The notes beneath the pieces were generated by a model that was not told the DNA's origin, searched no databases, and saw only the letters and a program-made list of their open reading frames with translations. Below are positions 34,889-37,274 of a DNA stretch of 64,000 bases, piece after piece. Within the stretch, counting starts at the first letter, position 1. The number at the start of each line of letters is the position of its first letter. A program made the translations under genes and the position numbers. The DNA is from Escherichia coli O157:H7. Lineage in GTDB: Bacteria; Pseudomonadota; Gammaproteobacteria; Enterobacterales; Enterobacteriaceae. The stretch lies in NCBI RefSeq assembly GCF_013167455.1, contig NZ_CP038328.1. One strand, given 5' to 3'.

Positions 34889-34932
34889 TTTAACTGATAC
34901 CGAACAAAACAATCCGGCACGATTAATTTCAA

Positions 34933-35355
34933 TCAATGCACTACGACAGAATCACCGGGCGACCCACCACCGCTGAAATGTGCTTTCCGGTAAACGGCCT
35001 GGACTGCATCATCATGCGCATCAATTGCCGTACTCAACGCTTCCTGCGCCGCCAGTAATGCACGGCGTTCCAGGGTATCGAAGATGCAGAGTCGGTGACG
35101 CAGCTCGCGCGGAAGAATTGCCAGAACCGCAGGGATCAGTTTCTGAATTTTTTCCCTTTGCGCTTTCGTTTCACCTTTCAACCAACGGTGATAGATATTC
35201 TGCTGATTGTTCCAGTCCTTGCCTGGTACCAGGGGCAATTCGCCGCCCCCCTGGCGCAGATATTCATCAGTAATTGCGTTAGCGACCCACGCCTGCCCTT
35301 TTTCGGCTGCCAGGGCTAACAGCACTGATTCGATGTGCTCATGCCTGATTTTCAT
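34933..35355 (-). CDS. YdaT-like protein (proposed CII-like regulator in Rac-type prophages)
   Basis: 140-aa ORF immediately after the cro-like gene with overlapping stop/start. Confidence 0.5.
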   Translation of the reverse strand: MKIRHEHIESVLLALAAEKGQAWVANAITDEYLRQGGGELPLVPGKDWNNQQNIYHRWLKGETKAQREKIQKLIPAVLAILPRELRHRLCIFDTLERRALLAAQEALSTAIDAHDDAVQAVYRKAHFSGGGSPGDSVVVH

Positions 35356-35594
35356 GAATCAACCGCTCCTATGCTGTTTTCGCTATGCTTACCGTCTGGG
35401 GGGAATACATCGTCAAGTCCACAATGAGCGCCAAGCCGATTAAGGGTAGAAACAATTTTTCTGCACTCCTCTAGTCCAGGGGTACGAAAATTTGCTTCGT
35501 AATTTGCCAGTCGGCTTTGTATCCACCCTAACTGAACAGCAAGTTGTCTTTGAGACAGCCCAAGCTGTTTTCGATATGTTGAAATTTTGTTCAT
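35352..35594 (-). CDS. Cro-like HTH regulator (YdaS-like)
   Basis: 80 aa with HTH (LGLSQRQLAVQLGWIQSRLANYE); divergent from the repressor gene. Confidence 0.65.
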   Translation of the reverse strand: MNKISTYRKQLGLSQRQLAVQLGWIQSRLANYEANFRTPGLEECRKIVSTLNRLGAHCGLDDVFPPDGKHSENSIGAVDS

Positions 35595-35690
35595 TGAAAA
35601 CCTCCGATGACAATTTTAAACACATCTTGTGTTATATGGTCAAGCTGTTTTGTGTTTTGTGTAAATCACGATTCGTGATACAAGGATGCA
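35595..35690. promoter_or_regulatory. Divergent promoter/operator region between cro-like and repressor genes
   Basis: Two palindromes: AACACAtctTGTGTT (35629..35643) and ATCACGAtTCGTGAT (35665..35679), plus a ttttgtg direct repeat. Confidence 0.5.
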
Positions 35691-36110
35691 ATGGAAAAAG
35701 AAAACGAAAAAATTGCCGCTAGTAGGCTCAATGACAAAATTGCAATGCGTCTTAAAGAGCGCAGGCAGAAGCTTGGTTTATCTCAAGGAAAACTTGCTGA
35801 AATCTGCGGATGGACGCAATCGCGTATAGGTAACTATGAGGCGGGTAGCAGAAATGTTGGAGTGCATGACGCTGTCGTATTGGGAAAGGCACTTGGCATA
35901 TCTCCTCCTGAGCTCCTCTTTGGAGAACAGGAATCTTCTGAATTGTGGTTAAATGAATCCCAACGAAAACTTCTTGAGTTGTTTAACCAGCTACCGGGCT
36001 CAGAACAACAACGAATGATTGAGCTATTTGAAGTCCGGCTAAAAGAAATCGATGAGTATGTAGAAAAATATTTGAGAGGCAGGCTTAAAGATAATCCCCC
36101 ACCGGAGTAA
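35691..36110 (+). CDS. Prophage repressor (HTH_XRE, cI/RacR-like)
   Basis: 139 aa with HTH (LGLSQGKLAEICGWTQSRIGNYE); followed by an intrinsic terminator. Confidence 0.65.
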   Translation: MEKENEKIAASRLNDKIAMRLKERRQKLGLSQGKLAEICGWTQSRIGNYEAGSRNVGVHDAVVLGKALGISPPELLFGEQESSELWLNESQRKLLELFNQLPGSEQQRMIELFEVRLKEIDEYVEKYLRGRLKDNPPPE

Positions 36111-36140
36111 TGATCTTGCTATCACAGTAATATGCCAATC

Positions 36141-36166
36141 AGCCCGCTATCAGCGGGCTTTTTTTG
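36141..36166 (+). terminator. Intrinsic terminator after the repressor gene
   Basis: Hairpin agcccgctatcagcgggct plus T7. Confidence 0.6.
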
Positions 36167-36416
36167 TACCATCATCATATGACACCCACCACAAAACACA
36201 TTTCGTGTTGACACAAGAAAACGCATTGTGTTTAATAAGCATATCCAAACAACGCCCCACCAGAGAACGGCAGGACAATACCTCGAGTTATCCAGCCACT
36301 GAACAGGGCTAAGTAGCCAGCCTGAGGCATACGAACATGACGGCAGTTGTTGATTGATACAAAGCGCAGTAGATAAAACGTTCCGCCACCCGGCGTTAAG
36401 GGGAAATGAGGTCAAC

Positions 36417-36569: not shown

Positions 36570-37085
36570 ACCATTTATTGGATTAATTCAATATTCTTGC
36601 TGTAGGGGTATAGCCGAGGCCACCAAAGCCCGGAGGTGGTGAAATAAAACCGGGCACAACACGAAGGCGCATTTCCGATATCCATAAAGAGTCGGTCTTG
36701 TCTGTTAAATTTAAATGGTGGGAGTGCGCCTCCGGTTGTAAATAACGACATTGCTGTGTGTAGTCTTGGCGGCATCAGTTCTACTCCGTGGCTGCCCTGC
36801 CGCCCCTTTTTAAAGTGAATTTTGTGATGCGGTGAATGCGGCTGAGCGCACGCGGCACAGTTAAAAGCATCAGTGTTATGGGTGGATTATCCGGCGTTAA
36901 TTGTTAACTGGTTAACGTCACCTGGAGGCACCAGGCACCGCATCAACAAAGTTCACTTCAGTGATGAAAGGTGAGAGAAAATGTTGGATGTAGCTATTGA
37001 AAACCAGAACGGGTGGAATTATAGTGCACCTGCACCTCATAAAACGGGTGCCGGGATTTGCACCCCGATGATCACTAGAGCGCAT

Positions 37086-37109
37086 AACCGCGCCAAAGCG
37101 GTTTTTTTA
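37086..37109 (+). terminator. Intrinsic terminator inside the noncoding region upstream of rha
   Basis: Hairpin aaccgcgccaaagcggtt plus T7. Confidence 0.5.
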
Positions 37110-37274
37110 TGCGTAAAGCGCAGCCACATTCAGATTATGGTGGGGCGTATGGGGCCGTTTTCGGGCGGGCCGGATTCTCTAGTGACCGGTAGTGCAAACC
37201 CTGTACGTCTCACCACCCATGAGATTTGCACCTCCGGTGGTGAGTTTACCAACTTATCACTAGAGGCTGCCATC

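What the first reader, a model, noticed from the sequence alone, without database searches (positions are those of the whole stretch)
35595..35690. Immunity switch region with two different palindromes
AACACAtctTGTGTT and ATCACGAtTCGTGAT lie between the divergent repressor and cro-like genes. Two unrelated palindromes suggest two different DNA-binding proteins (repressor and Cro-like, or host factor) rather than a tripartite operator of one specificity.
Basis: seen in the sequence. Interest (0 to 1): 0.35.

Follow-up and report, generated by a model that had tools for sequence, protein, structure and literature searches.

The report
Three-site prophage immunity operator
The two palindromes are real and conserved, but they are two variants of one operator family in an ordinary lambda-style three-site genetic switch of a Rac-like E. 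coli prophage, not sites of two unrelated specificities.

Summary
Both palindromes exist as described: AACACAtctTGTGTT at 35619-35633 and ATCACGAtTCGTGAT at 35665-35679. They lie in the 96-bp gap between a Cro-like gene and a DicA-like repressor gene of a Rac-family prophage (E. coli 2011C-4251). Two such palindromes in 96 bp are unlikely by chance (about 1.4%). Their arms are conserved across 32 sequence variants while the central bases vary.

They are not unrelated. Both are 15-mers with the same dyad geometry and the core CAC-N5-GTG. A matrix built only from relatives in other genera ranks them 2nd and 3rd of about 64,000 positions in the window. Ranks 1 and 4 are two further copies at the early-left promoter (36195, 36218).

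A conserved half-site (35642-35656) sits exactly midway, 23 bp from each, and some relatives carry three full sites at 23-24 bp. This is therefore a tripartite right operator. By inference, OR1 covers the cro promoter and OR3 covers a leaderless repressor promoter.

The repressor and the Cro-like protein share the same recognition helix, so both probably bind all sites with different affinities. The kind of system is known; the operator sequences appear undescribed. One modest curiosity: a natural swap replaced the repressor and operators but kept an identical cro.

The parts
35619..35633 (.). OR1-like operator (palindrome 1): AACACAtctTGTGTT. It fills the spacer of the cro-side promoter and overlaps its -10.
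   Evidence: Sequence read. Perfect inverted repeat. Arms invariant and centre variable in 32 variants. Scores 17-20 bits, rank 2 in the window, with a matrix built from other genera.
35642..35656 (.). OR2-like weak site: AAGCTGtttTGTGTT. The right half is perfect and the left half degenerate; the left half overlaps the -35 of the cro-side promoter by 2 bp.
   Evidence: Lies exactly 23 bp from OR1 and from OR3. The right half TGTGTT is invariant in 32 variants while the left half varies. A mid-site 23-24 bp from site 1 is found in 8 lineages, combined p = 7e-7. Full middle sites occur in L091, L103, L108 and L122. On its own it scores weakly: 85 positions in the window score as well.
35665..35679 (.). 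OR3-like operator (palindrome 2): ATCACGAtTCGTGAT. It lies in the spacer and extended -10 of the inferred repressor promoter.
   Evidence: Sequence read; perfect 7-bp arms. Unique in the window at up to 2 mismatches. Arms invariant. Rank 3 of 63,986 with a matrix that excludes all site-3 positions. The homologous site in relatives always has the right arm CGTG[AG]T.
35638..35643 (-). -35 hexamer TTGACC of the PR-like promoter for the cro-like/ydaT operon (inferred).
   Evidence: Read from the sequence. The same layout (-35, 4 nt, 15-bp operator, -10) is seen at OL and in relatives. Not reported by the consensus scan.
35613..35620 (-). -10 region of the PR-like promoter: TTTAAA with a 17-nt spacer, or TAAAAT with a 19-nt spacer (inferred). 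It overlaps the end of OR1.
   Evidence: Sequence. Parallels the PL-like promoter and K-12 Rac PydaST (TTGACA-18-TAATAT; PMC11879457).
35676..35684 (+). Extended -10 (TGaTACAAG) of the inferred PRM-like repressor promoter. The predicted transcription start is at about 35691, the A of the ATG, giving a leaderless mRNA.
   Evidence: cGTG[AG]TAnAAn followed 6-7 nt later by the ATG in 34 of 50 distinct variants across the family. Leaderless repressor transcripts were shown experimentally for paaR2 (PMC8630535) and racR (PMC9638921). No start site was measured for this sequence.
35691..36110 (+). Repressor gene, 139 aa: an N-terminal HTH_3 domain plus a DicA-like C-terminal helical part, with no peptidase domain.
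   Evidence: ORF. Pfam HTH_3 only. 29% identity to DicA over 129 aa, E = 2e-15. NCBIfam DicA model 57 bits, below the cut-off of 101.
35352..35594 (-). Cro-like gene, 80 aa, HTH_3.
   Evidence: ORF; Pfam. Its HTH is 45% identical to the repressor's HTH, with the same recognition helix QSR[IL]xNYE.
36141..36159 (+). Intrinsic terminator after the repressor gene.
   Evidence: 8-pair stem with 6 GC pairs, followed by a T-run.
36195..36209 (.). OL1-like operator AACACAtttCGTGTT. It overlaps the -35 of the PL-like promoter by 2 bp.
   Evidence: the best-scoring site in the window. Arms invariant over 38 variants.
36218..36232 (.). OL2-like operator AAAACGcatTGTGTT. It lies 23 bp from OL1 and overlaps the -10 of the PL-like promoter.
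   Evidence: rank 4 in the window. Right half invariant, left half variable.
36208..36238 (+). PL-like promoter: TTGACA at 36208-36213 and TTTAAT at 36231-36236 (or TAATAA at 36233-36238). It would drive DUF1391, DicF, the Rha-like gene, kilR and recET (inferred).
   Evidence: Sequence. Both hexamers invariant in 38 variants. Gene order.
35345..35362 (-). YdaT-box: TTGATTcatgaaAATCAG on the ydaT strand, with the ydaT start codon in its spacer. This is the site of the third regulator of the switch (CII-like).
   Evidence: It matches 16 of 18 positions of the footprinted K-12 Rac box ATGATTCATGAAAATCAA (PMC11879457) and fits TTGATTN6AATCAA (PMC9986795).
34933..35355 (-). ydaT, the CII-like regulator gene.
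   Evidence: Pfam YdaT_toxin 43 bits against a cut-off of 21. PHROG 'CII-like transcriptional activator', E = 5e-36.

Best explanation
The 96-bp region is the right operator (OR) of a lambdoid, Rac/Qin-type prophage immunity switch. It holds three 15-bp sites of one operator family, consensus about A-A/T-CAC-R-N3-Y-GTG-K/A-T, centred 23 bp apart.

- OR1 (palindrome 1) sits in the spacer and -10 of the promoter that drives the cro-like/ydaT operon.
- OR2 is a weak half-site that overlaps that promoter's -35. It is centred about 42 bp upstream of the repressor start codon.
- OR3 (palindrome 2) overlaps the extended -10 of a weak promoter whose transcript should start at the repressor's own ATG, making it leaderless.
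- Two more sites of the same family, 23 bp apart, cover the early-left promoter beyond the repressor gene (OL).

Proposed mechanism. The DicA-like repressor occupies OR1/OR2 and OL1/OL2 and so silences both early promoters. Occupancy of OR3 shuts off repressor synthesis. That occupancy could come from the Cro-like protein after derepression, or from excess repressor.

Shown here: the sites, their shared core, their phasing, their conservation, their copies at OL, and the related recognition helices of the two proteins.

Inferred: the promoters, the transcription start sites, which protein binds which site first, and activation from OR2.
For: 1. One family.
- P1 and P2 share length, dyad geometry and the CAC/GTG core.
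- Matrices built only from relatives in other genera place 36195, 35619, 35665 and 36218 as the top four of about 64,000 positions, well above the fifth.

2. Phasing.
- Site starts are 35619, 35642 and 35665, and 36195 and 36218: all 23 bp apart.
- A middle site is found 23-24 bp from site 1 in 8 lineages, combined p = 7e-7.
- Three full sites at 23/23-24 bp occur in L103, L108 and L122.

3. Selection.
- Arms vary in 1 of 24 columns against 35 of 72 elsewhere, and the centres are free.
- The OL arms and both PL hexamers are invariant over 38 variants.

4. Covariation over 235 loci.
- The repressor residue before 'SR' in the recognition helix tracks operator positions 1-2: Q goes with AA; TA with GA/GT/GC; G[AS] or T[PS] with TT/CT.
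- The Cro-like proteins carry Q or R at the same place.

5. Shared reading heads.
- The repressor and Cro-like HTH are 45% identical, with the same helix QSR[IL]xNYE.

6. Promoter geometry.
- The right arm of site 3 is always CGTG[AG]T followed by AnAAn.
- It lies 12-13 nt before the ATG in 34 of 50 distinct variants.

7. Precedent in homologous contexts.
- CP-933P: PaaR2 and YdaS footprints overlap across a 97-bp region; paaR2 is leaderless; YdaS occupies PRM first; OL copies exist (PMC8630535).
- K-12 Rac: three 6-n3-6 inverted repeats and a leaderless racR transcript (PMC9638921).
Against: - No binding or transcription data exist for this sequence.
- OR2 is weak by itself: 85 positions in the window score at least as well.
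- The consensus promoter scan did not report any of the three promoters I infer. Their -10 elements (TTTAAA, TTTAAT, TACAAG) fail its rules.
- P2 deviates from the AACAC consensus symmetrically on both arms, and this deviation is invariant. That hints at selection for a distinct preference rather than a merely weakened site.
- A Shine-Dalgarno-like AAGGA lies before the repressor ATG, so leadered transcripts probably also exist.
- In K-12 Rac, YdaS did not repress racR (PMC9638921). The Cro role therefore differs between relatives.
Confidence: 0.78

Rival explanations
1. P1-type sites (AACAC...GTGTT) are bound only by the repressor. P2 (ATCACG...CGTGAT) is a dedicated site bound only by the Cro-like protein. 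The region would then hold two separate specificities rather than one graded operator set.
For: - P2 differs from the AACAC consensus at position 2 on both arms, forms a perfect 7-bp-arm palindrome, and is invariant in all 32 variants.
- No P2-type copy exists at OL or anywhere else in the window.
- The identical Cro-like protein also occurs with a different repressor/operator cassette (L003, L005), whose sites are all xTCAC...GTGA, like P2.
Against: - P2 scores as a strong member of the family defined by the cro-proximal and OL sites of other genera (rank 3).
- A/T mixtures at position 2 within one operator set are common in relatives. An ATCAC-type site serves as OL1 in pAEv1818, where it overlaps the -35 of the PL-like promoter and so is presumably a repressor site (inferred).
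- The right arm CGTG[AG]T of site 3 is the same in every lineage whatever the Cro type. It coincides with the extended -10, so part of the difference between P1 and P2 is a promoter constraint.
- The two proteins have the same recognition-helix residues QSR..N.
- In CP-933P both proteins protect overlapping stretches (PMC8630535).
Confidence: 0.13
2. P2 is the target of a third factor: a host transcription factor, or YdaT (the CII-like protein).
For: - In K-12 Rac, YdaT also protects part of the racR-ydaS intergenic region (PMC11879457).
- P2 is unique in the window.
Against: - The YdaT recognition sequence is TGATT-N6-AATCA. A 16/18 match to the footprinted K-12 box lies elsewhere, at 35345-35362. 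P2 has a different half-site and spacing.
- The homologous site is kept in prophages of Aeromonas, Pectobacterium, Serratia, Citrobacter and Pseudomonas. Its outer bases follow the phage's own repressor type, which argues against a host factor.
Confidence: 0.04
3. The palindromes act as RNA or DNA hairpins, or are chance features of AT-rich intergenic DNA.
For: Both can form short hairpins.
Against: - Predicted stabilities are -3.6 to -6.8 kcal/mol, with z-scores of -0.3 to -1.0 against shuffles.
- Across lineages the arms change without keeping complementarity (for example TTCACA/CGTGAT and AACACG/CGTGGT) but keep CAC/GTG.
- The chance of two such palindromes in 96 bp is about 1.4%, and the arms are under purifying selection.
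Confidence: 0.02

Closest known systems
CP-933P immunity region of E. coli O157:H7 (PaaR2 / YdaS / YdaT; PMC8630535, PMC9986795)
   Same: - Divergent repressor and Cro-like genes separated by 96-97 bp.
- Several equally spaced inverted repeats overlapping PR- and PRM-type promoters.
- Further copies at a PL-type promoter.
- A repressor without a peptidase domain.
- A leaderless repressor mRNA (measured there, inferred here).
- A YdaT box at the ydaS/ydaT junction.
   Different: - Different operator sequence: the consensus half-site there is GTTTAGTAA, with four 18-bp repeats.
- No paaA2-parE2 toxin-antitoxin genes follow the repressor here.
- YdaT here is only distantly related to the crystallised CP-933P protein (8bt1, E = 3e-6).
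Rac prophage of E. coli K-12 (RacR / YdaS / YdaT; PMC9638921, PMC11879457)
   Same: - Same prophage family and attachment site (ttcA), and the same flanking genes (ydaT, ydaV, kilR, recET, intR).
- Three operators with the same 6-n3-6 geometry.
- A leaderless repressor transcript.
- A YdaT-box across the ydaT start codon (16 of 18 positions identical).
   Different: - The repressor is not homologous to RacR, and the Cro-like protein is not homologous to K-12 YdaS.
- The RacR operator WTAGGC-n3-GCCTAW is absent from the immunity region.
- This is therefore a different immunity type in the same prophage backbone.
Qin prophage dicC-dicA region (DicA; PMC3441716)
   Same: - The repressor is a full-length distant homologue of DicA (29% identity).
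- Downstream gene order is the same: repressor, DUF1391, DicF RNA.
- DicA bound at one inverted repeat represses dicC and activates dicA.
   Different: - The DicA operator Oc (TTGTTAGTcataACTAACAA) is absent.
- The Cro-like protein is unrelated to DicC.
- The NCBIfam DicA model is not reached (57 bits against 101).
Phage lambda / 434 / P22 OR (CI and Cro). The lambda figures below are from my own knowledge and were not checked here.
   Same: - Three related sites at 23-24 bp spacing between divergent cI-like and cro-like genes.
- The inferred positions of the site centres relative to the repressor start (-65, -42, -19) match lambda's OR1, OR2 and OR3 relative to PRM, as I recall them.
- Copies at OL.
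- Repressor and Cro share recognition-helix residues.
   Different: - The sites are 15 bp, not 17 bp.
- The repressor lacks the LexA-like self-cleavage domain, so induction cannot work by RecA-stimulated cleavage.
- OR2 is only a half-site.

Membership tests
Lambdoid CI/Cro-type immunity switch (tripartite OR plus OL) | Divergently transcribed repressor and cro-like HTH genes with a short shared control region | tested here: met
   ORFs at 35691-36110 (+) and 35352-35594 (-), 96 bp apart. Both match HTH_3.
Lambdoid CI/Cro-type immunity switch (tripartite OR plus OL) | Three related operator sites phased about two helical turns apart | tested here: met
   Sites at 35619, 35642 and 35665, 23 bp apart. 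OR2 is only a conserved half-site in this lineage but is a full site in some relatives.
Lambdoid CI/Cro-type immunity switch (tripartite OR plus OL) | Operators of the same family at a second, early-left promoter | tested here: met
   Sites at 36195-36209 and 36218-36232 flank TTGACA/TTTAAT.
Lambdoid CI/Cro-type immunity switch (tripartite OR plus OL) | Operators overlap two back-to-back promoters (PR and PRM) | tested here: inconclusive
   Hexamers were identified by eye and are conserved in relatives. The consensus scan did not report them, and no transcription start data exist.
Lambdoid CI/Cro-type immunity switch (tripartite OR plus OL) | Repressor and Cro bind the same sites in opposite order of affinity | not testable with these tools
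   Indirect evidence only: a shared recognition helix and covariation of both proteins with operator positions 1-2.
Lambda CI / LexA-like cleavable repressors | C-terminal S24 peptidase (self-cleavage) domain | tested here: not met
   Pfam finds only HTH domains in the 139-aa protein.
DicA family (NCBIfam NF007257) | Score above the curated cut-off of the family model | tested here: not met
   57.2 bits against a cut-off of 101. It is nevertheless a full-length homologue: 29% identity over 129 aa, E = 2e-15.
Rac K-12 immunity type (RacR/YdaS) | RacR and YdaS homologues, and WTAGGC-n3-GCCTAW operators | tested here: not met
   No significant similarity to RacR or YdaS. The operator pattern is absent from the region.
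YdaT (CII-like) regulators | YdaT_toxin domain, and a TGATT-N6-AATCA box at the ydaT start | tested here: met
   Pfam 43.3 bits against a cut-off of 21. The box at 35345-35362 matches 16 of 18 positions of the footprinted K-12 box.

The most novel reading that the evidence does not exclude
In this immunity type, OR3 (ATCACGAtTCGTGAT) may have been tuned to the Cro-like protein rather than to the repressor. That would partly uncouple Cro specificity from repressor specificity. It would explain how a natural recombinant could replace the whole OR-repressor-OL cassette (35592-36240) and keep a 100% identical cro. It would make 'repressor plus operators without cro' the exchangeable immunity unit in Rac-like prophages.
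Probability: 0.2. Interest if true: 0.45.

Novelty: new member of a known kind. Interest (0 to 1): 0.22.

Why it matters
The result assigns a concrete operator consensus and promoter layout to an immunity type found in 152 of 5426 complete E. coli genomes, including O157:H7 and O145 strains. I found no description of it in the searchable literature.

It extends the Rac / CP-933P / Qin picture to a large family reaching Pseudomonas and Vibrio. The shared features are three 15-bp sites, a leaderless repressor transcript and a repressor without a peptidase domain. The family also shows readable covariation between the recognition helix and the operator.

It does not change how such switches are understood.

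Tried and rejected
- RNA or DNA hairpin function: predicted folds are weak and no better than shuffles, and arm changes across lineages do not preserve pairing.
- RacR-type and DicA-type operators: neither pattern is present in the immunity region.
- A second P2-type copy: none in 64 kb at up to 2 mismatches.
- YdaT as the P2 binder: the YdaT box has a different half-site and spacing and lies at 35345-35362.
- The automatic promoter scan reported only two sites, neither of them one of the three I infer: one with its -10 inside the cro-like coding region, one on the minus strand just beyond the repressor stop codon. My promoter assignments rest instead on hand reading and conservation.
- Searching the paper library for the protein accessions and for the exact operator sequences gave nothing.
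- The first viral-contig scan returned almost only near-identical copies. Diversity came from the genome scan and from two reordered scans.
- I tried to decide from recognition-helix residues whether Cro prefers TCAC over ACAC. Both proteins carry the same QSR..N helix, so no call is possible.

Full report
**Context.** The window matches E. coli 2011C-4251 at 100% identity. The finding lies in a Rac-family prophage inserted next to ttcA. The local gene order, from the record's annotation and my ORF reading, is:
- ydaV;
- a DUF1376-like gene;
- ydaT (34933-35355, minus strand);
- an 80-aa HTH gene (35352-35594, minus strand);
- the 96-bp gap 35595-35690;
- a 139-aa HTH gene (35691-36110, plus strand);
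- a terminator (36141-36159);
- DUF1391, a Rha-like gene, kilR, recE, recT, xis and int.

Pfam finds only HTH domains in the two regulators and a YdaT_toxin domain in ydaT. PHROGs calls ydaT 'CII-like transcriptional activator'. The 139-aa protein is a distant full-length homologue of DicA (29% identity over 129 aa). It is below the NCBIfam DicA cut-off, has no similarity to RacR and has no peptidase domain. The 80-aa protein is unrelated to DicC and to K-12 YdaS. This is therefore a distinct immunity type in a Rac backbone.

- AACACAtctTGTGTT is at 35619-35633 and ATCACGAtTCGTGAT is at 35665-35679.
- The window has 115 comparable perfect inverted repeats, or 0.17 per 96 bp. Two or more in this gap has a probability of about 0.013. 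Only 1.4% of 5000 dinucleotide shuffles of the gap give two or more.
- Among 82 related loci there are 32 distinct, indel-free versions of the gap. The 24 arm columns vary once, while 35 of the other 72 columns vary (Fisher p = 5e-5). The central bases of both palindromes vary freely. That is the signature of dimer-binding half-sites.

**The palindromes are related, not unrelated.**
- Both are 15-mers with an odd centre, and both have CAC at positions 3-5 and GTG at positions 11-13.
- A search for P1 with at most 2 mismatches finds four sites in 64 kb. Three of them are here: P1 itself, AACACATTTCGTGTT at 36195-36209, and AAAACGCATTGTGTT at 36218-36232. The 36195 site is a hybrid, with a P1-type left arm and a CGTG right arm like P2.
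- I built a weight matrix only from sites of relatives in other genera: Citrobacter phage Chris1, Serratia, Citrobacter, Dryocola, Pectobacterium, Aeromonas phage pAEv1818, and a second E. coli cassette. The top four positions of the window were 36195, 35619, 35665 and 36218, scoring 20.5, 17.4, 16.9 and 13.7 bits. The fifth scored 11.0.
- A matrix that left out every repressor-proximal site, and also the one ATCAC-type site, still ranked P2 third of 63,986 positions.
- In relatives the two homologous positions carry graded forms:
  - TTCACAtttCGTGAG / TTCACAcatCGTGAT (E. coli PEC178);
  - AACACAtaaTGTGTT / AACACGtaaCGTGGT (Chris1);
  - AACACAtaaCGTGTT / AACACGctgCGTGGT (Serratia);
  - GACACAaatTGTGTC / GCCACAtttCGTGGT (pAEv1818).
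- The OL1 of pAEv1818 is ATCACTattCGTGAT.

**The operator is tripartite.**
- The starts 35619 and 35665 are 46 bp apart. Exactly midway, at 35642-35656, lies AAGCTGtttTGTGTT.
- Its right half is invariant in all 32 variants, while its left half varies. The left half overlaps the -35 of the cro-side promoter.
- Alone this site is weak: 85 positions in the window score as well.
- With leave-one-out matrices, the best 15-mer near the midpoint lies 23-24 bp from site 1 in all eight lineages tested. It falls in the top 1-3% of local block maxima in six of them (combined p = 7e-7; the window and L073 are not independent).
- Dryocola has AACACAtaaCGTTTT in the middle.
- Serratia sp. H1w, Vibrio plantisponsor and Aliivibrio have three full CAC...GTG sites spaced 23/23-24 bp.
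- The two OL sites are also 23 bp apart.

**Promoters (inferred).**
- On the minus strand the sequence reads TTGACC (35643..35638), then 4 nt, then OR1, then TTTAAA/TAAAAT, then GGAGG, then the cro ATG.
- On the plus strand at OL it reads OL1 overlapping TTGACA (36208-36213), then 4 nt, then OL2, then TTTAAT. So the two early promoters have the same layout.
- TTGACA, TTTAAT, the OL1 arms and the OL2 right half are invariant over 38 variants.
- For the repressor, the right arm of OR3 runs into TGaTACAAG (35676-35684), an extended -10. Its hexamer ends 6 nt before the ATG.
- Across the family the right arm of site 3 is always CGTG[AG]T followed by AnAAn. The ATG follows 12-13 nt after the site in 34 of 50 distinct variants. 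This holds even though the N-terminus of the window's repressor is 10 residues longer than in most relatives.
- This fits a leaderless transcript, as measured for paaR2 in CP-933P (PMC8630535) and for racR in K-12 (PMC9638921).
- With +1 at 35691, the three site centres fall at -65, -42 and -19. As I recall it, this is the lambda OR1/OR2/OR3 geometry relative to PRM.
- The consensus scan did not report any of these promoters, and there are no start-site data for this sequence.

**Who binds.**
- The two HTH domains are 45% identical and share the recognition helix QSR[IL]xNYE.
- Over 235 loci, the repressor residue before 'SR' tracks operator positions 1-2: Q goes with AA; TA with GA/GT/GC; G[AS] or T[PS] with TT/CT. 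The Cro-like proteins carry Q or R at the same position. This argues that both proteins read the same family of sites.
- In CP-933P both proteins protect overlapping stretches, and YdaS occupies PRM first.
- The most likely working is therefore the lambda logic. The repressor on OR1/OR2 and OL1/OL2 silences the early promoters, perhaps activating its own promoter from OR2. OR3 occupancy, by the Cro-like protein or by excess repressor, shuts off repressor synthesis.
- A third regulator, YdaT, has its own truly different palindrome outside the gap: TTGATTcatgaaAATCAG at 35345-35362, across the ydaT start codon. It matches 16 of 18 positions of the footprinted K-12 box.

**What remains open.**
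- P2 deviates from the AACAC consensus at position 2 on both arms, and this deviation is invariant.
- A natural recombinant sharpens the question. The window and E. coli PEC178 (L003) are about 100% identical from 34912 to 35591 and from 36241 to 36400, but only 40-75% identical from 35592 to 36240.
- So the cassette OR-repressor-OL was exchanged while the Cro-like protein stayed 100% identical. In complete E. coli genomes this cro occurs with only these two cassettes, in 152 and 9 genomes.
- All sites of the other cassette are xTCAC...GTGA, like P2. This is compatible with a Cro preference for TCAC-type sites.
- It is equally compatible with a Cro that reads only the shared core. In addition, part of P2's right arm is fixed by the promoter in every lineage.
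- I give the strict two-specificity reading about 0.13.

**Comparison and novelty.**
- The kind of system is known: lambda, CP-933P, Rac and Qin.
- The RacR and DicA operator patterns are absent.
- The exact operator sequences and the protein accessions do not occur in the searchable literature.
- I file this as a new member of a known kind, of low to moderate interest.

Noticed in passing
window 35345-35362 and 34919-34936: A YdaT-box (TTGATTcatgaaAATCAG on the ydaT strand) spans the cro-like stop codon and the ydaT start codon. It matches 16 of 18 positions of the footprinted K-12 Rac box. A weaker copy, ACGATTaatttcAATCAA, lies at the ydaT stop codon. The box centre is about 42 bp upstream of a possible plus-strand start downstream of TATGCT (35384-35389). 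That would be a PRE-like promoter reading toward the repressor gene; this promoter is my inference only.
   Followed up: partly
window 36755-37220, and ORF 36981-37829: Rfam finds DicF (36755-36805), isrK (37032-37108) and C4 antisense RNA (37133-37220) above their gathering scores, and STnc100 (36795-36964) just below its own. They lie upstream of, and inside the 5' part of, a Rha/Ant-like ORF in the early-left operon. This looks like a P1 immI / Gifsy isrK-type antirepressor module. It could be the induction route for a repressor that lacks a cleavage domain.
   Followed up: no
window 35592-36240, compared with L003 (E. coli PEC178): A clean module exchange. The flanks are about 100% identical, while the OR-repressor-OL cassette is only 40-75% identical. 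The breakpoints are at the cro start codon and just after the -10 of the PL-like promoter. Cro itself is not part of the exchanged unit.
   Followed up: yes
L005 (PP818812.1, 'Actinobacillus phage vB_Apl-pPE4'): The immunity region of this record is essentially identical to that of E. coli PEC178 and carries Rac-like genes (ydaT, kil). The stated Actinobacillus host looks doubtful.
   Followed up: no
L004, L089, L090, L266 and other loci of the Citrobacter group: A fourth CAC...GTG site (CTCACAt[ac]tAGTGTT) lies 26 bp beyond site 1 and overlaps the cro ribosome-binding site. It recalls the four repeats of CP-933P. It is absent from the window.
   Followed up: partly
window 35368-35387 and 35559-35578: A 20-nt direct repeat, 85% identical (CCTATGCTGTTTTCGCTATG / CCCAAGCTGTTTTCGATATG), lies near the two ends of the cro-like gene. 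It may be chance.
   Followed up: no
window 36241-36400: The leader of the early-left transcript is identical between the two cassette types. It contains a terminator-like hairpin on the minus strand (36277..36253). Its function is unknown.
   Followed up: no
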